Shown here: positions 3,711 to 50,872 of the stretch, one piece after another
Position numbering within the stretch: the stretch's first letter is position 1
How the letters are laid out: the number at the start of each line of letters is the position of its first letter
Assembly (NCBI GenBank): GCA_000091205.1
Contig: AP006495.2
Direction: 5' to 3' (one strand)
Length of the DNA: 64,000 bases
Origin: Cyanidioschyzon merolae
Taxonomy: Eukaryota
Made by a program: the position numbers and the translations under genes
Notes under the pieces: generated by a model
Told to the model about the DNA's origin: nothing
Database searches by the model: none
Seen by the model: only the letters and a program-made list of their open reading frames with translations

Positions 3711-4093
3711 TGAGGCCTCCAGTCCGCAGTGATGCACGTGCGTGATACGACGTCGTTATGGTAAGCGATAGAATGACTGGGTCTAAACATCATGGAAGCA
3801 TATTTTTCGACCCGATGCGACGCTTGGGCAGCTGCATGCAACGTTCGCACAAGCGTCATCCGCAAGGACCCCATCCGGGACGCAATGTACGATTCCCAGA
3901 CGCTCGCCCAGGATCGTAGGGTACTGCGCAGATAACAACGATCACGCGCTGGTACGTAAGTGTTGCGTCGTGCACGACCGACGGGCTGCTTTGTGAATGG
4001 TACGCATCGCAGTGTGAGCGTCTATTCGCGGAAAGGCGTTTCAGCGCAGCATCGAGCTGCAGCCGCTTCTCTGAGCAAGCAAGCATGCGACAT

Positions 4094-4441
4094 CCATGAC
4101 GATGCAGGCTATGGCATGTGTCCCATGTATGGTGGGTCTTATAGTCGGCGTCCACAAAAAGATAGCCGATTCCCTGCCGATGATACATCCGCTGTGTAGG
4201 AGGGTGTCTCCATGACGATGCAGGCTATGGCATGTGTCCCATGTATGGTGGGTCTTGTAGTCGGCGTCCACAAAAAGATAGCCGATTCCCTGCCGATGAT
4301 ACATCCGCTGTGTAGGAGGGTGTCTCCATGACGATGCAGGCTATGGCATGTGTCCCATGTATGGTGGGTCTTGTAGTCGGCGTCCACAAAAAGATAGCCG
4401 ATTCCCTGCCGATGATACATCCGCTGTGTAGGAGGGTGTCG
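4094..4441. repeat. 116-bp tandem repeat x3 (minisatellite)
   Basis: Unit ccatgacgatgcaggctatggcatgtgtcccatgtatggtgggtcttgtagtcggcgtccacaaaaagatagccgattccctgccgatgatacatccgctgtgtaggagggtgtct starts at 4094, 4210 and 4326 with 1-2 mismatches. It generates the overlapping ORF artefacts 4041-4476. Confidence 0.9.
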
Positions 4442-5782: not shown

Positions 5783-5870
5783 TGGACGTGAGGGGAATCG
5801 AACCCCTGGCCTTGACAATGCTAATGTCACGTCGGGTACTGCAGCAGTCATACCACTTGACGACACGCCC
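5783..5870 (-). tRNA. tRNA-Ala(AGC) with a ~16-nt non-canonical intron between D-arm and anticodon arm
   Basis: The reverse complement folds as acceptor GGGCGTG/CACGTCC with a G3:U70 wobble (the Ala identity element), D-arm GTCA-AGTGGTA-TGAC, anticodon arm TGACA-TTAGCAT-TGTCA (anticodon AGC), variable AGGCC, T-arm AGGGG-TTCGATT-CCCCT, discriminator A. The 17 nt TGCTGCAGTACCCGACG lie between the D-stem and anticodon stem, i.e. N26 plus a 16-nt intron. Confidence 0.7.
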
Positions 5871-9393: not shown

Positions 9394-11142
9394 TTAGTCC
9401 GGGGGATACTTTTGAAGAAACTCCTCGTGATGAGCCCGAAGCAGCGCGATGACGGGTTCGAGCTTTTCCTCCGGAGGCAAAATAGTCGTCCGCAGGTAAA
9501 ACCGACACGAACCGTTCGGGACACTGGATGTTGGTTCATTGGAATGCATGCCGAACCCTGCGCCCGGCACCACACAGATACCAGTTCGTTCCAAAAGGCT
9601 GACACAGTAAAACGTATCCAGCGGCATATTGGACTTTTGCGCTGCCTGGAGTGCTTTCGTGCCCACAGTGATGCTCGGAAAGGCGTACATGGCGCCCTCA
9701 CTAGGGTTGCATTGCACACCGCGCATACTCTTAAATGCCTCTACAACGCGATGCGCACGTCGCCGCAAACTTTCATAACGCTCAAGTTTCTCTTTCTGGT
9801 AGAGCTCATATGATGGTTGGCCCGGCTCCGGCGGGCGCACCACACAGTCGATCATGACCTGTCCGCCGAGGTTTGGGCAGAGCATGATACTAGCGAGTTT
9901 CAGGAGTTGTTCACGTGCCTCGTTTGTAACGCCCGGTGATAACAGCATGTAGCCGCCGCGGCGACCACACTCTCCGACAAGCCCTTTGCTGGCGGAGTAG
10001 AGCGACACGAGTTCCAGCGACTCCTGGACCTCCTCCGGCATACTCGAATGCAGCACTCTTCGAAACGACTCGAATTTCCGACCATCCAAGTACACGTTGT
10101 CTGCATAGACCTCATCAGCCAGGAGTAGGAGTCCCTCTCGATACGCAAAATCCATCAGTTCTCGCATGTTCGCCGGATGAAGCAATTGTCCGGTAGGATT
10201 CCCCGGTGAGATGACGACCAGGGCGCGCGCTTCGATGCCACGGGAGCGTGCCTGTCGAACCTGTTCCGTTAGCTCCGTGACTTGAATAGACCAATTCTGC
10301 TCCTGAACGAGATGGTAGTGTAGCGCTTCGATCCCTAGGACTGTGCAAAGCGCCGAGTAAATCGGATACTGTGGCACTGGAATCAGCACACCCGGTCGCA
10401 TGGAACGTGTTTCGCGTCCATGCGATACGCCGTTGGTACCGTCCGCGCTGAGCGCTGCGTCGGAACCGCTCAACAGCGCCATGAGCATGAGGATCGCGCT
10501 CGATGAACCATTTGTCAAAAACACATCCTTCACTCGAGCTGCAAATTCGGAGTCCTCGTGAATGCCGTCCCGCTTGTTCATGAACTCTGCCACATCTTGT
10601 CGAATGATCGGCACTCCCTGGGAGTCCGAGTACGCTCCCGTACCGCCGAGTCCAGCGGAGCGTAGGATTCGTTCCGTCGCTTCGCGCACGTCGGCGGGGA
10701 ACAGTTTTTCACGCTCCTTCTCCGGGAGTGCCGCTGCCAAGTCCGGACAGTCGCACAGTGCCATGACCCGCCGGTGGTAAGTGAATGGCGGGTTCCCAAG
10801 TGCCTGTGGATTTCCGATGTTGCAGTAAATTATTTCCTTAAACGGCAGTGCGGCAGCTTCTGGTCCTCCTTTTTCTAGAGTCTGTTGCAGTCGCGCAGCG
10901 CGAGTGGGCAATTCACCACGCACAGCGTACTGCGCCGCTACCACGCGCTGGTTTATGGTTCGCAAGTCGAGCGCTTTTCGCCGGCGCGTCCCGTCGGCTT
11001 CGTGCGGCATCCCTGCGCTTACACCGTGGCTCCTATTCCTTCGCCCTATACGGAGATAACTGAAATTGAGCAGCCCAAACGTTCTACGCCCTACCCGACC
11101 CGCCAACACGTGTTGCATCCACGGTGAATGTGCCACCAGCAC
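9394..11142 (-). CDS. alanine aminotransferase family (AlaAT / glutamate:glyoxylate aminotransferase-like), PLP-dependent, with ~60-aa N-terminal extension
   Basis: INQRVVAAQYAVRGE, IYCNIGNPQALG, and SASKGLVGECGRRGGYMLL with the catalytic Lys are typical of the AlaAT subfamily of class I aminotransferases. The N-terminus is Arg-rich and may be a targeting peptide. Confidence 0.85.
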   Translation of the reverse strand: MLVAHSPWMQHVLAGRVGRRTFGLLNFSYLRIGRRNRSHGVSAGMPHEADGTRRRKALDLRTINQRVVAAQYAVRGELPTRAARLQQTLEKGGPEAAALPFKEIIYCNIGNPQALGNPPFTYHRRVMALCDCPDLAAALPEKEREKLFPADVREATERILRSAGLGGTGAYSDSQGVPIIRQDVAEFMNKRDGIHEDSEFAARVKDVFLTNGSSSAILMLMALLSGSDAALSADGTNGVSHGRETRSMRPGVLIPVPQYPIYSALCTVLGIEALHYHLVQEQNWSIQVTELTEQVRQARSRGIEARALVVISPGNPTGQLLHPANMRELMDFAYREGLLLLADEVYADNVYLDGRKFESFRRVLHSSMPEEVQESLELVSLYSASKGLVGECGRRGGYMLLSPGVTNEAREQLLKLASIMLCPNLGGQVMIDCVVRPPEPGQPSYELYQKEKLERYESLRRRAHRVVEAFKSMRGVQCNPSEGAMYAFPSITVGTKALQAAQKSNMPLDTFYCVSLLERTGICVVPGAGFGMHSNEPTSSVPNGSCRFYLRTTILPPEEKLEPVIALLRAHHEEFLQKYPPD

Positions 11143-11792
11143 AGAGAGACACGTTCGCCTCTGCGTCTTTTCGAGGCGACCACTCTACCGTATCACCACT
11201 GTAACAAGCTGCTGCGCCCCGGGTGCTTGGTCCGTGCGTCCCCAGACGAAACCGTATTCGCTTCGAGCAAATCACGGGCGTTTCGCGTCGTCGATCAAAA
11301 ACACCACCAGTCATCACGTAAGTGTCGCTGATGCGACGACGCTCGAGCGCTGCGGAGATTGCGCCGGCGCCGGCGCCTCGCCCGCTTTTAGGGATAGCAT
11401 CAACATGCTCGAGCCGGCGTCCTCTGGCGAAGCGGCAACGCCGCTTTCTTTCCGAGTTGCGACTTCAGCGGCGCTAGAGGCGCTACTGCAGCGGACGTTC
11501 ACGACGTGCACTCGGCGCACAGTCGAACGAGAAACATAAACGGTACCCCCGAGGGAAACTATCGGTCGTGGAACTCTGAGGAAGAGCGTACAAGGATGGA
11601 AACTTCACTGCGCGCTGAGAACAAGCGTGCAATCGGGGATCGTTGGTCTGTGTAACTGCTATGTCAAGCAGAAGAAATCGTCGACACGGAGCAGCGTTCA
11701 GCAGCACACGCGAGCGGATGCATGAAGCGTGGCTCTTTGCCATGCTGGCGATGATGGCAGATGTATCAGCAAATCGCAGTGCACGCACATCC

Positions 11793-12215
11793 GAATACAA
11801 TCATGCATAAACGTGTGAATTCTAGTATACATTCTCGTAAGAATACAATCATGCATAAACATGTGAATTCTAGGATACATTCTCGTACGAATACGATCAT
11901 GCATAAACGTGTGAATTCTAGTATACATTCTCGTAAGAATACGATCATCCATAAACGTGTGAATTCTAGTATACATTCTCGTACGAATACAATCATGCAT
12001 AAACGTGTGAATTCTAGTATACATTCTTGTACGAATACAATCATGCATAAACGTGTGAATTCTAGTATACATTCTCGTACGAATACGATCATGCATAAAC
12101 ATGTGAATTCGAGCATACATTCTCGTAAGAATATAATCATCCATAAACGTGTGAATTCGAGCATACATTCTCGTAAGAATATAATCATCCATAAACGTGT
12201 GAATTCGAGCATTCG
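11793..12215. repeat. 48-bp tandem repeat x~8.8 (AT-richer minisatellite) in divergent promoter region
   Basis: Unit gaatacaatcatgcataaacgtgtgaattctagtatacattctcgtaa begins at 11793, 11841, 11889 and so on. Each unit carries GAATTC and CATGCATAAAC. The array lies between the 5' ends of the aminotransferase (-) and the PLGG1-like gene (+). Confidence 0.9.
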
Positions 12216-12295
12216 TGCACGCAGGCTCCATCCGATGCGCACACAGAATGGTATCCGTAGATGTTTCTACGACGTGCCTGTAGCTGGACGTAAGT

Positions 12296-14143
12296 GTGCG
12301 CTGTTTTACGCTCCGTGGCCATCGTTGCACTATGACATTGGGAACGGGCTTTGTGTGTCCTAGTGTCCACGGTGCGGAGCGGGTGTCGGTCCAGTATGGA
12401 CGGGGTTTGCTGGTCGGGACAACTTGCCGGCTGTGGCAAGGGCACTGGCGTGGGATCGGTCAAAGAGCTCGTTTCAATTCAAACAAACTTTCGGACTTAA
12501 GGGACTTGGGACGTTTTCGGAGACGTTTTTTCGATGAATTTGGGACACCGCAACGAAGAACACTCGTAGCGAGCGCGACAGACAAGTCACCAGTGGTGCG
12601 TGTCGGTTGGGTGTACTCTCGCGGTGGGCAGACTCCACGTGCCTGGCTTGGTGTTCTTGCACTTTTTCTTGGAGATCGTGGCTTTCGCTGGTTATTCAGC
12701 GTACTGAGGATTCGCTTCCCAAGTTCTTTAGCGGGAATGTTGTTTCTGTTTCTGCTGTTACTTTTGACGGAGAACAGAGCGTGGCCAACTGGTTTGCCGC
12801 CATCGCCGAACCAAGTCGCAGCAGCGTCTGTCGAACCCGAACGCCTCTCCATTGCAGACAACATCGTCCTCCTAGTCTCGCCTGGGCTCGGACTGGTCAC
12901 CCGATGGTTGGCGATCTTCTTCGTGCCTAACTTGATCATGCTGCCTCATGCTGATGCGCCACATGGGTCCGCGCTACTTCGGCTTGTGCTCGCACTATGC
13001 GTCGGTCTTATCTTTAGTCTGGTAAGCTCCCTCATCTTTGTATCGATACTTGCGTGGGTGTCAGATCAGAGGCGCGGAGCCACGAAGAATCGACGACCCA
13101 CACACGACCAGCCCTTGGTAGAGAAAGTGCAGGACGGGAACACGAGACCGGAACGATCCTCCAAACTTTCTCGTCCAGAATCTCCTGGTCTGCGTACGGG
13201 GAATCCTGCCTCAAGCGGACCACGCTTTGCTTTAATCGGCTTGTGGGGTCTCGTCTGGATCGTCTCAGCTGTATGCTGGATTACGGGAGCGGGTGCGAGC
13301 GCCGACTTTCGAGCGCTTGCGCTTTGGTTGCATCAGCTTTCTTCGACGGTTGTCGGGTTCAGCTTGGGTCAACGCTTGCCGTCAAGATTTCAAAAAGTTC
13401 TACACCCGCTGGTGAGCTGCGTCGTTTTTACATACTTTTCGCTGTGGATGCTTGCGTGCGGTACCGGAAGCGCATGGAGCGAGCTCTTGCTTCTGTACAT
13501 GCGTCGACCCGGGAAGAAATGGCCACCGGCGGTGACCGGCAATCTCAGCGCGATTGCACGAAGCACTGTTTTTGCGCTAGGTGGCCCAGGGAATCTGCTC
13601 TTGAGCTTCCTGGGGCCTGCCGTGCTCTCATTCGCCTTCCAAATGTACCAGAGGCGGACGATCATTCGAGCGAACGGAATCCAAGTGATAGGCGGCTGCC
13701 TGATGGCGGCCTTTTTCGGGATGCTGGGCTCTGCAGCGCTTGCTCGTCTATTCTGTTTGCCGGCATCGTTGCGCTTGGTCTTTGCCCCGCGTTCGATTAC
13801 AGCACCGTTAGCGATAGGCATCGCAGACATTCTGGAGACAGATGCCACATTGACGGCCACCGTTGTAGTCATTACAGGCCTTCTTGGCGCTAATTTTGGG
13901 AGGCTCTGTCTCGATATTTTACGTCCCGTGTTACCGAGTGCTTCATCACCAGTCGCTCGTGGGCTTGCAATGGGCGCGTCTGCCCATGGCCTCGGAACGG
14001 CTGCCATTAGCGAGGAGCCGGATGCTTTTCCGTTTTCGGCCATTGCAATGGCCTTGGTCGGTACGCTTAGCGCGTTGATGGTGACGCTACCACCTTTTAG
14101 AGCGCTTCTGAGCATGGTTGCGGGCACGACTCTAGGCCGCTAG
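12296..14143 (+). CDS. PLGG1: LrgA/LrgB-family membrane protein, plastidal glycolate/glycerate translocator (PLGG1)-like
   Basis: C-terminal LrgB-like region PASLRLVFAPRSITAPLAIGIADILETDATLTATVVVITGLLGANFG...ARGLAMGASAHGLGTAAISEEPDAFPFSAIAMALVGTLSAL, preceded by an LrgA-like hydrophobic region. The start codon is uncertain; the first ~100 codons may be non-coding. Confidence 0.7.
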   Translation: MRCFTLRGHRCTMTLGTGFVCPSVHGAERVSVQYGRGLLVGTTCRLWQGHWRGIGQRARFNSNKLSDLRDLGRFRRRFFDEFGTPQRRTLVASATDKSPVVRVGWVYSRGGQTPRAWLGVLALFLGDRGFRWLFSVLRIRFPSSLAGMLFLFLLLLLTENRAWPTGLPPSPNQVAAASVEPERLSIADNIVLLVSPGLGLVTRWLAIFFVPNLIMLPHADAPHGSALLRLVLALCVGLIFSLVSSLIFVSILAWVSDQRRGATKNRRPTHDQPLVEKVQDGNTRPERSSKLSRPESPGLRTGNPASSGPRFALIGLWGLVWIVSAVCWITGAGASADFRALALWLHQLSSTVVGFSLGQRLPSRFQKVLHPLVSCVVFTYFSLWMLACGTGSAWSELLLLYMRRPGKKWPPAVTGNLSAIARSTVFALGGPGNLLLSFLGPAVLSFAFQMYQRRTIIRANGIQVIGGCLMAAFFGMLGSAALARLFCLPASLRLVFAPRSITAPLAIGIADILETDATLTATVVVITGLLGANFGRLCLDILRPVLPSASSPVARGLAMGASAHGLGTAAISEEPDAFPFSAIAMALVGTLSALMVTLPPFRALLSMVAGTTLGR

Positions 14144-18655: not shown

Positions 18656-19450
18656 ACAATTAGCTAGGCGCACGCACGGATGGTTCACAGCGAGCATGCA
18701 ACCCTGTATGGTTGTGGGCCTGATCGCAGCTCGACTGCCGTAGACGTGGAAATCGGTGCTCGGGGGAACGCCTCGGATTGAGTCCCGGCGAACTTGGCTG
18801 CTCCTGGGCAGCGTCAAGGCCTCGAGTTCCGACACCTGTTGCGTATCGATGTGCAGAGCTGCGCGTACGGAGCGCGAGACTCTTCATAAAAGCGCTCGAC
18901 GCATGCGAGTAGGGGCATGTGCGATCGTGCTTGCAGGCGTTGGAAGTATGCATGAAAGCTCCCTGGGAAGCGGATTAGTGAGACTGTCCACCGCATCGGG
19001 GAATGCAGATCTTCGAACCGAATCCAGATTTGCGTCTTCTGTGCTATGATGAAAGCTGGAGGTAGTGTTTCAGAGGCATTGCGTTTTGCCGAGGTACACG
19101 CGGGCTTCCATCTGCACCCTGCTGCCGTGCTGGTGGGAACTGAGGTACCGCACTCGGAAGTCGATGCAGCATCGTCTGGGGCTGGTGTGAATATGCGGCC
19201 TGGGTGCCAGTGCATCAACCTTCTGATGCATAACATGGTTGGCAGCGGAGGTTGCACCGGATTCATTGCTGGACACTGGCGTTTGACATACGCATGTTCG
19301 GGAATTTGGCGCAGGCGCGCATCGATGCAGGTATCAGTCCAATGTACTTGATATACGCATGTTCGGGTATTTGGCACGAGCGTGCACCGATCCGGGTACC
19401 GTTCCGATACGCGTTAACCGAATGCGGCGTTGGGGCGAGCCAAGCGCCTG

Positions 19451-19765
19451 CACTGGAGATGCCTATCAGTTGGCGATGCGGTCGCAAAAGAGCGACGCAG
19501 CTTAAACAATGTGCACTGGAGATGCCTATCAGTAGGCGATGCGGTCGCAAAAGAGCGACGCAGCTTAAACAATGTGCACTGGAGATGCCTATCAGTTGGC
19601 GATGCGGTCGCAAAAGAGCGACGCAGCTTAAACAATGTGCACTGGAGATGCCTATCAGTTGGCGATGCGGTCGCAAAAGAGCGACGCAGCTTAAACAATG
19701 TGCACTGGAGATGCCTATCAGTAGGCGATGCGGTCGCAAAAGAGTGACGCAGCTTAAACAATGTG
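19451..19765. repeat. 63-bp tandem repeat x5
   Basis: Unit cactggagatgcctatcagttggcgatgcggtcgcaaaagagcgacgcagcttaaacaatgtg starts at 19451, 19514, 19577, 19640 and 19703. Copies 2 and 5 carry a T-to-A variant. It produces repeat-derived ORFs on both strands. Confidence 0.9.
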
Positions 19766-20699
19766 CATTGGGGACAGCTGCTGATGCGAATTCGTTCTGG
19801 AGCTCGCGATGCCGAGTGCTCATGGGTACAGAATCTCGGGTCTTGTCCTATGACTGCTCATCGCCGTACAAATGCTTCTGATCCCGGATCATTTACCATG
19901 CGCATGACGATCGTCAAGGCCGGTAGTTTGAGTGCTCCAAAGCTCCGCGGAGCACATGGACATCTTCCCCAGAGCGCTAACGCATGTGGCACGCGGCCTG
20001 AGTCTGTTCGTGTTGTTGACATCGATCACAGCTGTTTTGCTCGGAGCATGCTCGTTCACGCTAGGTTTGCGAATGCATCGAGTCGGGAAAGGCGACGACT
20101 GGTGCAAATTGCTTGGCGTGCTCCCTGCTTGCCGGATTCTAGCCTACGTCAACGGATGAGCGCGCACGACCCTGAGCCGCTCAGTGAGTATGAAAAGCGA
20201 ATGGCATCCTTTCTAGGTCATTTTCTCGTTCCAAAGGTATATATGGATGCATGCAGAACTTGGGCCAGTTCGTCTCGTGAAATGTACCATCGACTTGGCG
20301 CTCCTGTTCTGAGCCGGTCGCCCGATGCGATCACGAAAGCATTTGCGTTTTGGCCCTGCAAATGATGGTGCACTCGTTCGATAGGCAGCGGTCTGAAGCA
20401 AGTGCCTGTCCGTGCGCACAGGCTGACACAGACCCGGTTCATATACGTAAGCCGTCCCGAGCGCCCAACCCGGTCTCACAACGGCGGAGGCGTGTAGCGT
20501 CGAGCAGTCACTGCGGTTTAAAAGCTGTGCGTTCAAGTCAGAGGCGTCTTCGAGCACCAGGGCAGAGGGCGCGCTGGAGAGGCACTTAGCAGTTGTGATC
20601 GATGTATCGTGAGCGTATGACAAGGAAGCCAAAGCCTTCCTGCGGAAAACCCAAGAAGGATATTTTCCTATGATCACCAGCACTCATACAGTGGAGACA

Positions 20700-26110: not shown

Positions 26111-26819
26111 GCTATCCCCCAGAGACGCTCGGGATCAAAAGCCTCGCCACCAGTGCACGCACTCAGCGTAACGTACTCGCTGCCACCATGGATCGCACAG
26201 GTAACCCTAGGCTAGCAAGCGCTCACTGGCACATCTGCGACGATCGATGGACGCGCGCTCGGCAGCCTCGCTGCGCGCAATCGCCAGAGCGGCGATCGAT
26301 GGGGCACGCATTTCGCGTCGCAGCACGATGTCTGTGTGCGCGTTTTCCGAGGCGCGTCTGGCGGGTGCAATGGCGCACGCTCGCCGCCGCCCTGCCTGGC
26401 ACTCGATCTGGTGATCGCGCTCGATACGCCGCACTGACTAGGGGACGGCGTGCATGCACGCATGCCGAGACAGTCAGGCGCATCCGCGGCATGCATCCGC
26501 GCGGATCCAGGAGCGAGCGCGTGCCGCTGGCGATCGCGGTGCGTGTGGTCGGTTGACTGCGGAATGGACCCGCCAGCGTCGCGGCATCCTACTCTTTTCG
26601 ATGACAGAACGTTCAGATAGACCATGGATCCCAGAATTCGGAATGAGTGTTAAGATTCATGTAATTGTCCGCCATGATGCACCGTACTTCCAAGTTTCAT
26701 TACACATACTTTCTCTCGGATATGCTGGTCGCTTCGTATGTTCTATCGTGCGCCGAGTGCGTGCCGTCAGCGCCCGCCGTGGCACTTATACCACTGAAGC
26801 AGGTGCTGCACGGGGCCAG

Positions 26820-27170
26820 AGCGGCTCTGGCATACCAATGAGGGCGTCGGCTCGAGGCGTGGTTCATTCGACACGGAATCGGAGTACATAATCATTCTGG
26901 AAGCCTGCGACAGCGCGAACCGATCTACTAAGAGTCCACTGCAACCGGAGCGACGCCCAGACGCAGTAAAGCTGCGTCTAGTCCCAGAATGAACTGCGTT
27001 GCGGACGAGCTGCGCGGGTCTCGCCACAGTACCTGCCGCTGGAGGAAGCATGAAGCACGAGTCTTTCAGACTCGTCCGGCTCGCGGGACCTTCCGCCTAA
27101 AAGGTAAACTTTCGAAGATATGGAAACTTTTTCCCTTATTTTAACATTCATCGTACGTTATGTAGGGAAC
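26820..27170 (+). repeat. dispersed repeat, 5' module of composite family (copy without clear 3' module)
   Basis: ~65% identity to 37085-37440. Shared blocks include cagagcgg...ggc(a/g)tcgg(c/t)tcgagg..cggttca..cgg, gacgcccagacgca, ctagtc.cag.atg.actgcgtt.cgg.cgagctg and cgtcc.gg.cg.gggaccttccgc.taaaaggtaaactttc. Confidence 0.65.
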
Positions 27171-27504
27171 ATCGATACGCACTCACAGAAGACTAGCCCG
27201 CAGCATCCCAGGCTCAGGAAGGTCCGGCGGCTTGCACGAAGCGCTGGTTGGTGCGTGGCGACCTTGGCGATCCGCGTTGGGCGACAACGCAGCGCGCATG
27301 TGTTGTAAACGAGGCGAGCGGGACGTCCTTGGATGCGTTACGGGAACGTCGTCATCAGCCTGATCTGTTACGCAATGTGGTAGCGTGGCATATTGTTTTC
27401 GAACGAAGCCAGAGTGACCGCATCGTTCACATTCGACGCATGCATTCGCAGATAGCTGGGGCCCTGGTGTGTCAACCGCCTCACTACGGCATTTGCAGCA
27501 GCTT

Positions 27505-27518
27505 GCAGGCAGGCAGGT

Positions 27519-27553
<35 letters not shown>
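27505..27553. repeat. (GCAG)~12 tetranucleotide microsatellite
   Basis: gcaggcaggtaggcaggcaggcaggcaggcaggcaggcaggcaggtg. Confidence 0.9.
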
Positions 27554-30099
27554 TGAGCGTTGGATCGCTGCACGTGGCGCAGCAACACGTTCAGGCATTC
27601 TCGGAAGCGAGGTTTCAAAATTCTTTTCCTTCCAGCAGGCCGTGTTACATACACTGCGTCGAGCTTCAGTTTTGTTATCGCACGAATCTTTTATCGAAAG
27701 AGTCCGGAAGAATATGGACGGATGTGAGCCCCGTATCCGGAACACCCGTGAACTGTAGATTGACGTGCAGCTTCAAGTATCGGACAGCTAGAAGGGCGTT
27801 CGGCGAGCGAGAAGCCTTGCGAGCGCGCATGGCGCCGTTCATCTCATTTTTTGGAAGAGTCTGCAGGTTGATGTGTGTCACAAGGGAGGCCCTTACCATG
27901 GTATCAGCCTGATCTTTCCCCTCCGGCAGCTTTTCTTTCCCTGTAACCCATCGTCCTCTATTCAGGAGCATCTTTCTCTTCTTTGCAAGGTGCGCTCTTT
28001 CCTTCCTCATTTACTTGGCGCTGTGGCTTGGATACGTTTTCCAGACTCCATATCTGTTTTCTTCCGGGGAATTCAGACGCACAGGATGGAGAATACGACT
28101 GAAATTCGCCGATTCTGTTTATGCGTCAAAGATTTGTCAAATACATGTTCATCACCGTGTCCGTGGTGAGCGCACCAAGTAACTGGAGCGCACCTGTCTG
28201 CAACCGCCCGCGCACGAGCAAAGAAGCAAGAAACCTGTTCGGCACTGGAGAAGTGAAAGAAAGATGTGGCGAAAAACGATGCCACGGATGCAAACGACTC
28301 GTCCATTGATCGTTGAGCGTCGAACTAGGGTTTTACAACAGATAAGAGGCATTGGACTGGATTGAACCAGGTAGAACAGGCTGGCTCGAATAGCAGCTGA
28401 GCGCCAATCGCAGCTGGTTACTCGTTGCCCGCTTTTGACTGATGGAAACCCACGTCATCTAAGAGCGGAATAGCAGAGTGTGGAAAGCACGTACCACGAA
28501 GCATGCGTCGACGACGGATGAGGTATTCAAAGATGCCTCACAGTTGGCGATTTGGAAGCGGTCACATGATTGAATCCCCGTTGGCGTTCATGTTGTCATG
28601 ATGCTCGCTTTTCTCTCGTTTACGAACAGCGGTTTGCCGCTCTTTGAGCATTCACATGCAGTTCTACCATTTCTTCCGATTAGAGTCTGATCGTGTTAGA
28701 GGAACACCCGCCCATAGTTTAAAACGCTCTCGTGCTCATGGGAAATCGGTCTCATGTTGTTCAACGAGCGACGGTCTCCCACAGAGCCGAGGTTTTTTTC
28801 TACGTCTATTTCGAGTCTGCATGTAAGCGTTCATGTGAAAGGTACAGAAACTTTGTGTTTAATCGCTTTTTGGTGACATTTTTAGGGAATGTAAGAAGCG
28901 GAATGGACCGAGGAACAAACAGTGGCATAGATCGAGTTTGATTGCTTCAGTTTCCCGTGTACGACGTAAAGTGCAACGACTGTGGCATAGGCGGTTCATC
29001 CATCCGCCGACCATAGAATAACTGACTTTGACGAAAGAGACAGTATTTTCACAAGTTAGCCGCGACAGGGTAGAGTACATCAAATACCCACCTGGAGTCT
29101 ACAGGATATATCCATGTATTGAACAAGTGCGAGAAAAACGAACAAGACAAAAACGGCTTGCAGGTAGAGATGTTCTCAAATTCACTGTTTTAAATAGAAG
29201 AACTTGCGCTCCACCATATCAGAATAAAATGAAGCGGGTCTTCTGATACGGACGTATAGACTAGAGATTGGGTCGTTGCCCGATTTCATCGAAACCAGTC
29301 TTTGTGGACTTGTTTCGCAACTGTCTCATATTGCTCTCTTATTCCAAGCTTTGAATAGGGCTGGCTCCTTTGTTCCTCCAGCTCGATTCGTACTTAGAAT
29401 CAGGAGCTTCTTCTCGACCATCTTCTCAGCGAGTACGCTGTCAGCTGCATGCGCGAGCGCACATTGTACCATTTGATAGCGGACTTGTGCATCATGATGT
29501 TTTCCGTGATGAAACAAGTACGAGAATGAGTTTCCAGGTTGGATATTAATTGAAGATATTTCGATCCATTTACACTTGCTTCGGGCAAATCGTTGGTACA
29601 CGTTCCGCTGCAAGCGATTGCTGCGGTAACTCTAGACCGAGTGCAAGACCCTCGTCAATGCAAACAGGAGAGTCGGGAGCCTCTCCGAGCGGTATCCCGA
29701 AATGAGGTATCATGCTGGTACAAAATACCATTTCGTCAATGGTCAAATAGATATGAATCTTTGTCTTTCGAACGAAATCGGTGGTTTGCAGAGAGTCCTA
29801 CAGAGCACTTCCGGCATGATCTTGTGAGCAACTCGTCAAAGATTGACGTCGAGCGTTTACCTCTTCAGTCCTATGGCGCGAATCGCTGCGACTACGAGTT
29901 GTCTTGGAAATGGTGGACAGAAAATTTGGCGCATGCGCGATATGAGCATACAACAGGTATAAAACGGAGAAGAATCGCGGCTTTTTCATAAGAGTAAGAT
30001 ACCAATATCGATTGGGTTACGAACTTTTGCATACGTACGTCGCGAATCATCCTGACCCCAGTGACGGAACGAATGCCACGTGCAGTGTCGATAGAGCAG

Positions 30100-30325
30100 C
30101 CCCCCCCCCCAAAACGACAGGGAAACATCCGAAAACGACATATGAATCCGTACGCCCTCCTAGCCGAAAATGGGTTATCGAGGCTGTACATCCGAAAAAA
30201 AATGTCCGGAAAAAAAAAAAAAAACCTGGAACGGAGCGATCAGCCCAAAAATCCATAGGAATCTGAAACGACTGGACAATAGTTTCGCCAACTGCCTCGC
30301 CCCGAGTCCGCGACATACGCAGAAG

Positions 30326-33538: not shown

Positions 33539-33584
33539 CAAAGTTTTTTTCGGATACGACAACATGCCCGACTGCGACAACAAC

Positions 33585-33956
33585 ATCTGGCCTTTGCATG
33601 CTAGTCGCCAGCTCACCGTGAATGCAAACCCGACCCCGATGCTCCATACATATGCAATCTGTTCCGAAAAGAAGACCATCTGGCCTTTGCGTGCTAGTCG
33701 CCAGCTCACCGTGAATGCAAACCCGACCCCAATGCTCCGTACATATGCAATCTGTTCCGAAAAGAAGACCATCTGGCCTTTGCGTGCTAGTCGCCAGCTC
33801 ACCGTGAATGCAAACCCGACCCCAATGCTCCTTACATATGCAATCTGTTCCGAAAAGAAGACCATCTGGCCTTTGCGTGCTAGTCGCCAGCTCACCGTGA
33901 ATGCAAACCCGACCCCAATGCTCCTTACATATGCAATCTGTTCCGAAAAGAGTACC
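33585..33956. repeat. 93-bp tandem repeat x4
   Basis: Unit atctggcctttgcgtgctagtcgccagctcaccgtgaatgcaaacccgaccccaatgctcc.tacatatgcaatctgttccgaaaagaagacc starts at 33585, 33678, 33771 and 33864. It begins ~45 bp after the stop codon at 33538. Confidence 0.9.
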
Positions 33957-50308: not shown

Positions 50309-50654
50309 TTGCTACTCGAGCTGCTGAGCCTCTGAACGCAGGTTTTCATTTTCCGTTGCCAGTTTATTCCAATAACTCGCCCGTGCACTACGAAGGACCT
50401 ATTACAGGTTCGCGCCACGCGTAAACTACAATACAAAAACTATGGTACGCAGATTATGTTTCCCGAAAGATACATGCATGCCGTATCTGCAGTCGATCGC
50501 ACGGTCGGTGTTGAACGAGATCAATGTGTCCCGGGTACACGACGAAAAGCGTCCTGCTGCTCTTGGCGTGCAGCAGGACGTCCGGGCGTCGAAATGGTAT
50601 CCCATCCGGAACCGAACGCGCCCTCAACTTGGACGCATCGAAATCGTTTTCCCC

Positions 50655-50872
50655 AGTGAACTGCGACTTCGCGTGTCCGCTGCGGAGGCGGAACGTGGGT
50701 TCAGTCCAATACCTTCCATTTCTGTTCTTCTAGGGAGAAAAGTGGCATCTTGGACTTACATCCAGTGAACTGCGACTTCGCGTGTCCGCTGCGGAGGCGG
50801 AACGAGGGTTCGGTCCAATACCTTCCATTTCTGTTCTTCTAGGGAGAAAAGTGGCATCTTGGACTTACATCC
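50655..50872. repeat. 109-bp tandem duplication x2
   Basis: Copies at 50655-50763 and 50764-50872 are near-identical: agtgaactgcgacttcgcgtgtccgctgcggaggcggaacg.gggttc.gtccaataccttccatttctgttcttctagggagaaaagtggcatcttggacttacatcc. Confidence 0.9.

What the first reader, a model, noticed from the sequence alone, without database searches (positions are those of the whole stretch)
11143..12295. Bidirectional promoter between an AlaAT/GGAT-like aminotransferase and a PLGG1-like transporter contains a 48-bp x ~9 tandem array
The two genes are divergently transcribed with 5' ends ~1.15 kb apart. Nearly 40% of that shared upstream region is a near-perfect 48-bp array, AT-richer than its surroundings. 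Every unit carries CATGCATAAAC and GAATTC, so the array could present ~9 evenly spaced copies of a cis-element. Both gene products sit on the glycolate/glyoxylate/glycerate axis. PLGG1 is the plastid glycolate/glycerate translocator of photorespiration, and AlaAT-family enzymes include glutamate:glyoxylate aminotransferase. Co-regulation from a shared repeat-containing promoter is therefore a coherent hypothesis.
Basis: partly seen in the sequence, partly recalled or inferred. Interest (0 to 1): 0.6.

Follow-up and report, generated by a model that had tools for sequence, protein, structure and literature searches.

The report
Strain-variable minisatellite upstream of algal PLGG1-like gene
[quoted passage not shown] It is a young, species-specific minisatellite that ranges from about 2 to 15 copies between strains, so it is very unlikely to be a conserved control element shared by the two genes.

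Summary
The array is real: window 11793-12209, 48 bp x 8.7 units, 33% GC against 56% for the window. It lies between an alanine-aminotransferase gene (minus strand, ATG 11118) and an LrgB/PLGG1-like gene (plus strand, ATG 12332). Both proteins are identical to Cyanidioschyzon merolae 10D chromosome-13 entries, and the aminotransferase is most likely the published GGT candidate CMM066C. One detail is wrong: CATGCATAAAC occurs in 6 of 9 units, not all.

The divergent gene pair is syntenic in three other cyanidialean lineages. None of them has the array or any unit-like sequence. Without the array the C. merolae spacer is 796 bp, against 626-787 bp in the relatives.

Conspecific metagenome contigs (98-99.4% identical flanks) carry complete alleles of 1.7, 7.7, 11.7, 13.7 and 14.7 units, each with a different internal variant order. 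The unit occurs nowhere else.

I read it as a hypervariable promoter-proximal minisatellite (VNTR). At most it is a quantitative modifier of the PLGG1-like promoter, 126 bp from that gene's ATG. It is not a conserved shared cis-element. Co-regulation of the two genes remains plausible but untested. No expression, transcription-start (TSS) or chromatin data could be retrieved.

The parts
11793..12209 (.). 48-bp minisatellite: 8 full units plus a 33-bp partial unit (variant map ABCDEFGHI). GC 0.33. Consensus GAATACGATCATGCATAAACGTGTGAATTCTAGTATACATTCTCGTAC.
   Evidence: TRF, repeat families, unit listing, allele maps, composition.
9394..11118 (-). Alanine aminotransferase family gene, 574 aa. 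Identical to C. merolae 10D BAM80949.1 and most likely the published GGT candidate CMM066C. The C-terminus ...KYPPD has no PTS1-like tripeptide. The N-terminus has an Arg-rich extension of about 40 aa.
   Evidence: Pfam Aminotran_1_2, E 1.7e-37; homologues named alanine transaminase; exact identity; PMC4867895 Table S2.
12332..14143 (+). LrgB / PLGG1-like membrane protein, 603 aa. Identical to C. merolae 10D BAM80950.1. LrgB domain at residues 351-597 of the maximal ORF translated from the GTG at 12296 (615 aa), i.e. about 339-585 of this 603-aa protein. There is a weak LrgA-like match in the N-terminal half.
   Evidence: Pfam LrgB, E 8e-37; weak LrgA, E 0.0017, below cut-off; homologues; identity.
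11119..11792 (.). Non-repetitive part of the spacer on the AlaAT side (674 bp, GC 0.58). It shows 1.3-1.5% SNPs against conspecific contigs, compared with 0.2-0.5% in the coding sequences.
12210..12331 (+). 122 bp between the array and the LrgB ATG. This is the probable core promoter and short 5' UTR of the LrgB gene (inference). It holds three upstream ATGs at 12235, 12248 and 12261.
   Evidence: Sequence. The ORF 11761-12363 runs through the array and overlaps the LrgB ATG out of frame.
11779..11787 (+). GTGCACGCA, left copy of a 9-bp direct repeat that brackets the array.
   Evidence: Sequence, motif positions.
12215..12223 (+). GTGCACGCA, right copy of the 9-bp direct repeat. Conspecific alleles have GTACACGCA here.
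   Evidence: Sequence.

Best explanation
The array is a young, Cyanidioschyzon merolae-specific, AT-rich minisatellite (VNTR). It arose inside an otherwise ordinary spacer of about 800 bp between two divergently transcribed genes.

It expands, contracts and reshuffles its unit variants, presumably by replication slippage and unequal or gene-conversion-type recombination (mechanism inferred). Natural strains therefore carry roughly 2 to 15 units.

It is not a conserved regulatory module and is not needed for whatever coordination exists between the aminotransferase and the PLGG1-like transporter, since sister lineages keep the same gene pair without it.

The array ends only about 125 bp upstream of the PLGG1-like start codon, so any effect it has should fall on that gene. 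It inserts 80-700 bp of nucleosome-disfavouring AT-rich DNA between the transporter's core promoter and the rest of the spacer. Copy number may therefore shift transporter transcription quantitatively (inferred, untested), as variable promoter repeats do in yeast.

Shown: the structure, its lineage restriction, its polymorphism, its uniqueness to this locus, and its non-coding character. Inferred: the mutational mechanism, the transcription start (TSS) position and any expression effect.
For: - The array and its asymmetric position are established.
- The same gene order (LRR, DAO, LSM, AlaAT head-to-head with LrgB, DUF5323, citrate synthase) is found in Cyanidiococcus yangmingshanensis (L005) and an unnamed relative (L006). 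The AlaAT/LrgB pair is also present in a more distant lineage (L007).
- TRF finds no array in those spacers, and blastn finds no unit-like sequence.
- The spacer minus the array is 796 bp, against 645, 787 and 626 bp in the relatives.
- Conspecific contigs have flanks 98-99.4% identical to the window. They carry complete arrays of 1.7 (L002), 7.7 (L001), 11.7 (L015), 13.7 (L008 = L025) and 14.7 (L010) units, against 8.7 here. Their variant maps differ, and further distinct partial 5' ends exist.
- Independent assemblies reproduce long identical sub-maps. L008 and L010 share an 11-unit suffix; L016 and L019 share the prefix WcXK. This argues that the maps are real.
- At least 12 contigs terminate at the array edge, as short-read assemblies do on true repeats.
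- The unit core is found only at this locus in the metagenome scan and only in the array within the window.
- Unit 8- to 10-mers outside the array are at chance level.
- Variable positions show no codon periodicity (5/4/3). The repeat ORFs have no credible Pfam match. There is no stable single-strand fold (z = 0.3) and no Rfam hit.
- The window has four other intergenic minisatellites, and one (63 bp) also differs in copy number from conspecific contigs (5 versus 2). Minisatellite turnover therefore looks like a general property of this genome.
Against: - The array is a compositional outlier. It is by far the most AT-rich 400 bp in 64 kb, whereas the other four minisatellites are 52-53% GC and lie at gene 3' ends.
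- No conspecific contig lacks it completely (minimum 1.7 units).
- The core AAAC(G/A)TGTGAATTC is nearly invariant across the 29 unit variants seen. The last, partial unit is always the ATG-less CATCC variant. These features could reflect constraint rather than homogenisation.
- The shortest allele (L002) may be a de Bruijn-graph collapse, since it equals L001 with internal units removed.
- No expression, TSS or chromatin data were available, so a regulatory effect is neither shown nor excluded.
Confidence: 0.7

Rival explanations
1. The array is a homotypic cluster of about 9 evenly spaced binding sites for a transcription factor (via CATGCATAAAC, GAATTC or the ACGTGT core). It acts as a shared enhancer that co-regulates the aminotransferase and the PLGG1-like transporter in photorespiration.
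For: - The two genes are divergent neighbours with a plausible common pathway, and the pairing is kept in three related lineages.
- For about 20 pathway genes among 4775, only about 0.08 adjacent pairs (0.02 divergent) are expected by chance. This estimate is post hoc.
- The core AAAC(G/A)TGTGAATTC is present in every unit of this allele.
- Synthetic arrays of 12 tandem binding sites do drive transcription in C. merolae (PMC12770821).
Against: - The array and its motifs are absent from all orthologous spacers that keep the gene pair.
- Copy number runs from about 2 to 15 among conspecifics.
- CATGCATAAAC is missing from 3 of 9 units, and ACGTGT is replaced by ACATGT in 2 of 9.
- The motif does not recur elsewhere in the window or at other loci in the metagenome scan.
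- The array is 674 bp from the AlaAT ATG but 125 bp from the LrgB ATG.
- The whole neighbourhood is syntenic, so conservation of the pair is not specific evidence for a shared promoter.
Confidence: 0.08
2. A selected 'tuning knob'. The array is a functional, variable promoter repeat of the PLGG1-like gene only. Unit number sets nucleosome occupancy or promoter spacing, and hence transporter expression. Different hot-spring populations have been selected for different lengths.
For: - The position is promoter-proximal and the AT-richness is extreme and unique in the window.
- The array persists in every conspecific contig, with a wide range of allele lengths.
- There is precedent: variation of promoter tandem repeats alters expression in yeast (Vinces et al. 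2009, as cited in PMC4617956).
Against: - There are no expression or chromatin data.
- The same polymorphism is expected for a neutral minisatellite, and another minisatellite in the window also varies.
- Relatives manage without the array.
- The TSS is unknown, and none has been mapped for any endogenous C. merolae promoter (PMC12770821).
Confidence: 0.18
3. The array is transcribed or translated. It might encode a repetitive peptide (three reading frames are open through it) or lie inside a long 5' UTR or non-coding RNA.
For: - ORFs of 200, 210 and 158 aa run through it.
- Prokaryotic gene callers called ORFs there on metagenome contigs (L001 1234-1788; L025 1648-2421).
Against: - The period is 48 = 16 codons, so any stop-free frame stays open by construction.
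- Variable sites show no third-position bias.
- No Pfam family passes its threshold with a matched stretch, there is no Rfam hit and no fold.
- As a 5' UTR, this allele would place 6 in-array ATGs plus 3 more upstream of, and out of frame with or terminated before, the LrgB start.
Confidence: 0.03
4. Assembly artefact: the array, or its copy number, is not real.
For: Short-read assemblies break or may collapse at this array. The L002 allele could be a collapse.
Against: - The window proteins match the finished 10D chromosome 13.
- The array is recovered independently in many assemblies, with concordant flanks and shared sub-maps.
Confidence: 0.01

Closest known systems
Variable tandem repeats in promoters (yeast; Vinces et al. 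2009 Science 324:1213, cited in PMC4617956)
   Same: A tandem repeat in the proximal upstream region of a gene. It is AT-rich and unstable in copy number between strains, so it is a candidate quantitative modifier of expression through nucleosome exclusion or spacing.
   Different: The yeast cases are mostly short-unit repeats, and their expression effects have been shown by experiment. Here the unit is 48 bp and no expression, nucleosome or TSS data exist. The organism is a red alga in which no endogenous promoter has been dissected (PMC12770821).
Classical hypervariable minisatellites / VNTRs with variant-repeat (MVR) maps, including promoter VNTRs such as the human INS and MAOA upstream repeats (own knowledge)
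   Same: The unit is tens of bp long. Alleles differ both in number and in the interspersion order of unit variants. The edge units are more stable than the interior. The array is single-locus and non-coding.
   Different: Human minisatellites are typically GC-rich with a shared core and are often subtelomeric. This one is 33% GC, shares no core with the other four minisatellites in the window, and lies in a gene-dense internal region of a 16.5-Mb genome.
Bidirectional promoters of divergent gene pairs
   Same: Two head-to-head genes are separated by about 0.8-1.2 kb. The arrangement is conserved among related lineages, and the genes have plausibly linked functions.
   Different: The usual definition rests on the distance between transcription starts (less than 1 kb) and on co-expression. 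Neither is known here. The conserved feature is the gene pair, not the repeat, and the whole neighbourhood is syntenic.
Homotypic clusters of transcription-factor binding sites / synthetic multimerised enhancers (e.g. 12x ZFHD1 sites used in C. merolae, PMC12770821)
   Same: Evenly spaced copies of one sequence lie upstream of a core promoter.
   Different: No factor is known to bind the unit. The motif is not conserved across units, strains or species, and it is not found in other promoters.

Membership tests
Minisatellite / VNTR | Head-to-tail tandem units of about 10-100 bp | tested here: met
   48-bp period, 8.6-8.7 units, 93% matches, no indels.
Minisatellite / VNTR | Copy-number polymorphism among individuals of one species | tested here: met
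   Complete alleles of 1.7, 7.7, 8.7, 11.7, 13.7 and 14.7 units sit on flanks 98-99.4% identical to the window. Caveat: these are short-read metagenome assemblies, and the 1.7-unit allele may be a collapse.
Minisatellite / VNTR | Alleles differ in the internal order of unit variants | tested here: met
   29 unit variants, including two partial end units. The maps are ABCDEFGHI, JKLKKMHI, WKXYRYZaaUbV, NONKPQRSTKSUFV and WKWFKPQRSTKSUFV.
Minisatellite / VNTR | Non-coding, single locus | tested here: met
   No codon periodicity, no credible Pfam match and no Rfam hit. The unit is found only at this locus.
Bidirectional promoter | Divergent genes with transcription starts less than about 1 kb apart | tested here: inconclusive
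   The genes are divergent. The start codons are 1213 bp apart in this allele and 796 bp apart without the array. Transcription starts are unknown, and none has been mapped for any C. merolae promoter (PMC12770821).
Bidirectional promoter | Co-expression of the two genes | not testable with these tools
   No expression table with these genes could be retrieved.
Bidirectional promoter | Arrangement conserved in related genomes | tested here: met
   AlaAT head-to-head with LrgB in L005, L006 and L007. It is not seen at two more distant LrgB loci. General synteny explains much of this.
Repeated cis-regulatory element (homotypic site cluster) | The putative site is present in every unit | tested here: not met
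   CATGCATAAAC is in 6 of 9 units and ACGTGT in 7 of 9. Only GAATTC and TGTGAATTC are in 9 of 9.
Repeated cis-regulatory element (homotypic site cluster) | Conserved in orthologous promoters | tested here: not met
   No array and no unit-like sequence or motifs in the spacers of L005, L006 or L007.
Repeated cis-regulatory element (homotypic site cluster) | Motif shared with other co-regulated promoters | tested here: inconclusive
   No extra copies in this 64-kb window and none at other loci in the metagenome scan with a strict 30-mer. The promoters of the other photorespiratory genes were not available.
Repeated cis-regulatory element (homotypic site cluster) | Bound by a transcription factor | not testable with these tools
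   This needs EMSA, DAP-seq or ChIP.
PLGG1 (plastid glycolate/glycerate translocator, LrgA-LrgB fusion) | LrgB domain | tested here: met
   Pfam PF04172, E 8e-37, above the cut-off.
PLGG1 (plastid glycolate/glycerate translocator, LrgA-LrgB fusion) | N-terminal LrgA-like half fused to LrgB | tested here: inconclusive
   Pfam LrgA, E 0.0017, 18.7 bits, below the 28-bit cut-off. JGI names cluster members as LrgB/LrgA.
PLGG1 (plastid glycolate/glycerate translocator, LrgA-LrgB fusion) | Plastid envelope location and glycolate/glycerate transport | not testable with these tools
   There is an Arg-rich N-terminal extension of about 100 aa. The literature states that PLGG1 is encoded in C. merolae but gives no gene ID (PMC4867895).
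Glutamate:glyoxylate aminotransferase (GGAT/GGT) | Member of the AlaAT subgroup of class I aminotransferases | tested here: met
   Pfam Aminotran_1_2. The best named homologues are alanine / glutamate-pyruvate transaminases at 41-47% identity.
Glutamate:glyoxylate aminotransferase (GGAT/GGT) | Reciprocal best hit of plant GGT1 | not tested
   Taken from the literature: CMM066C is the best bidirectional hit of AT1G23310 at 38% identity (PMC4867895 Table S2). Equating CMM066C with the window gene rests on annotation and chromosome.
Glutamate:glyoxylate aminotransferase (GGAT/GGT) | Peroxisomal targeting signal (C-terminal PTS1) | tested here: not met
   The C-terminus is ...EEFLQKYPPD. By eye there is no SKL-like tripeptide and no PTS2-like nonapeptide in the N-terminus.
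Glutamate:glyoxylate aminotransferase (GGAT/GGT) | Glyoxylate-dependent activity | not testable with these tools
   This needs an enzyme assay.

The most novel reading that the evidence does not exclude
Array length is an adaptive, rapidly mutating 'rheostat' for the plastid glycolate/glycerate transporter. In this reading the AT-rich 48-bp units set nucleosome occupancy or the spacing of the PLGG1-like core promoter. Natural hot-spring populations of C. merolae, with 2 to 15 units, would then differ heritably in photorespiratory transport capacity. This would be the first functional promoter VNTR described in a red alga, in an organism where each allele can be rebuilt by homologous recombination.
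Probability: 0.12. Interest if true: 0.55.

Novelty: new member of a known kind. Interest (0 to 1): 0.25.

Why it matters
Mainly it corrects an attractive but unsupported reading. The repeat is not a conserved control element linking two photorespiratory genes.

What remains useful:
- It is a single-locus, highly polymorphic marker for typing C. merolae strains and hot-spring populations. It also explains why short-read assemblies break at this locus.
- It is a ready-made natural allelic series (about 2-15 units) immediately upstream of the only PLGG1-type transporter gene reported for this alga. The organism has efficient homologous recombination and no characterised endogenous promoter.
- The AlaAT/LrgB head-to-head pair, conserved in several cyanidialean lineages, remains a reasonable candidate for co-regulation and can be tested independently of the repeat.

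Tried and rejected
- Conserved footprints: MAFFT was not useful. k-mer sharing and blastn between the C. merolae spacer and the three orthologous spacers gave only chance-level matches. The best was one 13-mer, ATTCGCTTCGAGC, shared with L006.
- Progenitor of the unit in relatives: none found. L006 has an unrelated AT-rich patch (GC 0.30 over 60 bp) about 80-140 bp before its called LrgB start, but with no sequence similarity.
- Dispersed family or transposon origin: rejected. The unit is unique to this locus.
- Shared minisatellite core with the four other arrays in the window: none.
- Coding, RNA or hairpin readings: rejected.
- Heat-shock-element, PTS2 and TATA readings of the unit were checked by eye only. 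GAATTC lacks the 2-nt spacer of nGAAnnTTCn. TATAAT occurs only in the last two units of this allele and is absent from the last unit of other alleles.
- Expression evidence:
  - No paper in the library mentions CMM064C-CMM068C in its text.
  - Rademacher et al. 2017 is not held.
  - The supplements of PMC10154280 do not list these genes.
- Published description of C. merolae minisatellites: none found in Nozaki 2007, Sato 2020 or the 2024 repeat survey.
- NCBIfam: uninformative. The models are prokaryotic and all matches were below cut-off.
- Deeper conservation of the gene pair: two more distant LrgB loci lack an AlaAT neighbour. Galdieria could not be examined.
Full report
**1. What is in the sequence**

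Tandem Repeats Finder reports one array at 11793-12206. It has period 48, 8.6 copies, 93% matches, no indels and score 688. An independent repeat search gives the same 48-bp register. Read in register, there are eight full units and one 33-bp partial unit, ending at 12209.

A 26-mer from the unit matches nine times with up to 3 mismatches, all in the array, against zero expected from shuffles.

The array has 33% GC. The left spacer has 58%, the right spacer 55% and the window 56%. It is the most AT-rich 400 bp of the whole window: 0.328 against a mean of 0.559 (sd 0.045), with the next lowest at 0.417.

CATGCATAAAC is present in six of nine units, and three carry CATCCATAAAC. GAATTC is in all nine. 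All eight full units of this allele differ from each other. A 9-bp direct repeat, GTGCACGCA, brackets the array at 11779 and 12215.

**2. The neighbours and the organism**

The minus-strand ORF 9394-11142 is a class I/II aminotransferase (Pfam E 1.7e-37). The plus-strand ORF 12296-14143 is an LrgB-family protein (E 8e-37). Those ORF limits are mechanical GTG starts. The first ATGs, which are also the starts chosen by gene callers on related contigs, are 11118 and 12332.

The coding sequences are therefore 1213 bp apart, and the array is 34% of that spacer. It is placed asymmetrically, 674 bp from the aminotransferase ATG and 125 bp from the LrgB ATG.

The translated proteins are identical over their full length to Cyanidioschyzon merolae 10D BAM80949.1 ('alanine aminotransferase') and BAM80950.1 ('hypothetical protein, conserved'). 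These have consecutive accessions and lie on an 866,983-bp contig. That is the published length of chromosome 13 (PMC1955436).

Rademacher et al. 2016 list CMM066C, a chromosome-13 ID, as the best bidirectional hit of Arabidopsis GGT1 at 38% identity (PMC4867895 Table S2). They also state that PLGG1 is the only known photorespiratory transporter encoded in C. merolae.

Three caveats apply:
- The aminotransferase ends in ...KYPPD with no PTS1 and has an Arg-rich N-terminal extension. A peroxisomal GGAT role is therefore not evident from the sequence.
- Its closest named homologues are ordinary alanine transaminases at 41-47% identity.
- The LrgA-like half of the transporter is only weakly detectable (E 0.0017, below cut-off).

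**3. Comparison with other lineages**

The orthologous locus was fetched from Cyanidiococcus yangmingshanensis (L005; LrgB 57% and AlaAT 76% identical), from an unnamed metagenomic relative (L006; 65% and 76%), and from a more distant one (L007; 39% and 66%).

L005 and L006 have the same gene order over about 20 kb: LRR, DAO, LSM, AlaAT head-to-head with LrgB, DUF5323, citrate synthase. L007 has rearrangements on both sides but still has AlaAT head-to-head with LrgB.

None of the three has a tandem repeat comparable to the array in the spacer. L007 has only an (ACG)9 microsatellite there. blastn finds no unit-like sequence anywhere in those loci.

Their spacers are 645, 787 and 626 bp. The C. 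merolae spacer without the array is 796 bp. The array is therefore an insertion or expansion specific to the C. merolae lineage, inside an otherwise typical spacer.

The spacers are not alignable between species. The motifs CATGCA, ACGTGT, GAATTC and CATAAAC do not cluster in the relatives. Two more distant LrgB loci have no AlaAT neighbour.

**4. Variation within the species**

Exact-protein look-ups and one metagenome scan with the unit core returned many contigs whose flanks are 98-99.4% identical to the window.

Five contigs span the array completely:

| Source | Units | Variant map |
|---|---|---|
| L002 | 1.7 | MI |
| L001 | 7.7 | JKLKKMHI |
| window (10D) | 8.7 | ABCDEFGHI |
| L015 | 11.7 | WKXYRYZaaUbV |
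| L008 = L025 | 13.7 | NONKPQRSTKSUFV |
| L010 | 14.7 | WKWFKPQRSTKSUFV |

Writing each distinct 48-mer as a letter gives these different variant maps. Several further distinct 5' ends run off their contigs (L019 WcXKWJKK.., L023 WKK.., L017 JK.., L027 KB..).

L015 encodes an aminotransferase identical to that of 10D, yet carries three more units than the window.

Independent assemblies agree on long stretches. L008 and L010 share an 11-unit suffix, and L016 and L019 share WcXK. This argues against assembly noise. The 1.7-unit allele equals L001 with internal units removed and may be a graph collapse.

At least a dozen contigs end exactly at the array edge.

The metagenome scan found the unit only at this locus.

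SNP density against three conspecific contigs is 1.3-2.6% in the non-repeat spacer and 0.2-0.5% in the two coding regions, as expected for non-coding DNA.

This is the behaviour of a hypervariable minisatellite.

**5. Other readings tested**

- *Coding.* Three of six frames are open through the array, and gene callers called ORFs there. But 48 is 16 codons, so open frames persist by construction. The 12 variable positions among 21 variants fall 5/4/3 over codon positions, and no Pfam family gives a credible match.
- *RNA or DNA structure.* There is no Rfam hit, no inverted repeats, and a fold z-score of 0.3.
- *General cis-motif.* 8- to 10-mers of the unit occur outside the array at chance frequency (87 versus 69, 22 versus 16.5, 5 versus 4). 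The 14-mer core occurs only in the array.
- *Genome habit.* The window has four other minisatellites (116 x 3, 63 x 5, 93 x 4, 109 x 2), all intergenic with unrelated units. The 63-bp one has only 2 copies in three conspecific contigs. Those four are 52-53% GC and lie at gene 3' ends, so the 48-bp array is unusual in both composition and position.

**6. Where the promoter probably is (inference)**

Each CATGCA unit carries an ATG in the frame of ORF 11761-12363. That ORF overlaps the LrgB ATG out of frame. Three more ATGs lie at 12235, 12248 and 12261. A transcript starting in or before the array would carry many upstream ATGs.

The LrgB transcription start is therefore most likely within about 70 bp of the start codon, which places the array at roughly -60 to -540.

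The last, partial unit is the ATG-less CATCC variant in every allele. This could reflect either a stable edge unit or constraint.

No endogenous C. merolae promoter has a mapped TSS or TATA box (PMC12770821), so this cannot be checked against known architecture.

**7. Interpretation**

The best-supported account is a young, lineage-specific, AT-rich VNTR that changes length by slippage or unequal exchange. It is dispensable for the conserved head-to-head gene pair. At most it is a quantitative modifier of the adjacent PLGG1-like promoter, by analogy with variable promoter repeats in yeast (Vinces et al. 2009, cited in PMC4617956).

- absence from the orthologous spacers;
- copy number from about 2 to 15 within the species;
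- loss of the motif in a third of the units;
- lack of the motif elsewhere;
- asymmetric placement next to one gene.

Co-regulation of the two genes themselves stays open. About 0.08 adjacent pairs (0.02 divergent) are expected by chance among roughly 20 pathway genes in 4775 (post hoc), and the pair survives rearrangement in L007. However, the whole neighbourhood is syntenic, and no expression data could be obtained.

**8. Novelty and score**

The sequence belongs to a published, finished genome. I found no description of this array, or of C. merolae intergenic minisatellites in general, in the papers checked.

It is a new member of a known kind (promoter-proximal VNTR). Its main interest is practical: a strain marker and a natural allelic series upstream of PLGG1 in a genetically tractable alga. 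Interest 0.25.

Noticed in passing
window 4093-4440, 19449-19771, 33584-33951, 50653-50872: Four more intergenic minisatellites (116 bp x 3, 63 bp x 5.1, 93 bp x 4, 109 bp x 2). All are 52-53% GC, all lie just downstream of gene 3' ends, and none shares a core with any other. The 63-bp array has only 2 copies in conspecific contigs L001, L002 and L008. Minisatellites are frequent (about 1 per 13 kb) in a genome described as unusually repeat-poor.
   Followed up: partly
L026 1-2019 (JGI 3300050366, Ga0506594_000791): In this conspecific contig the match to the window stops 164 bp upstream of the AlaAT ATG (window 11282). It is replaced by a gene for an M1 peptidase / leukotriene-A4-hydrolase-like protein (647 aa, Pfam E 1e-48) reading towards AlaAT. 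This is either a real rearrangement that separates AlaAT from the array and the LrgB gene, or an assembly chimera.
   Followed up: partly
window 5783-5870 (-): The Rfam tRNA match spans 88 nt for a 71-position model, so this is probably an intron-containing tRNA gene. It lies between the DAO-like gene and the LSM gene.
   Followed up: no
window 26111-30169, especially 28800-29900: A gap of about 4 kb has no ORF of 220 aa or more. It contains the second most AT-rich stretch of the window (GC 0.42-0.45 over 400-bp windows). Its nature is unknown.
   Followed up: no
L001 1234-1788; L025 1648-2421: Prokaryotic gene callers annotated 184-aa and 257-aa 'proteins' that are simply open frames through the 48-bp array (48 = 16 codons). 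Such spurious repeat proteins are therefore present in public metagenome protein sets.
   Followed up: yes
L007 6320-6347: The orthologous AlaAT-LrgB spacer of the most distant relative contains an (ACG)9 microsatellite and is 64% GC. It has no similarity to the C. merolae array.
   Followed up: no
window 12177-12209 and the last unit of L001, L002, L008, L010, L015: The terminal partial unit is always the CATCC (ATG-less) variant, in every allele. Interior units are mostly CATGC.
   Followed up: partly
L006 9213-10000: The closest other species has an unrelated AT-rich patch (60 bp at 30% GC) about 80-140 bp upstream of its called LrgB start. An AT-rich tract near this promoter may therefore predate the array. 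The L006 start codon is uncertain, since the called protein is 100 aa shorter.
   Followed up: no
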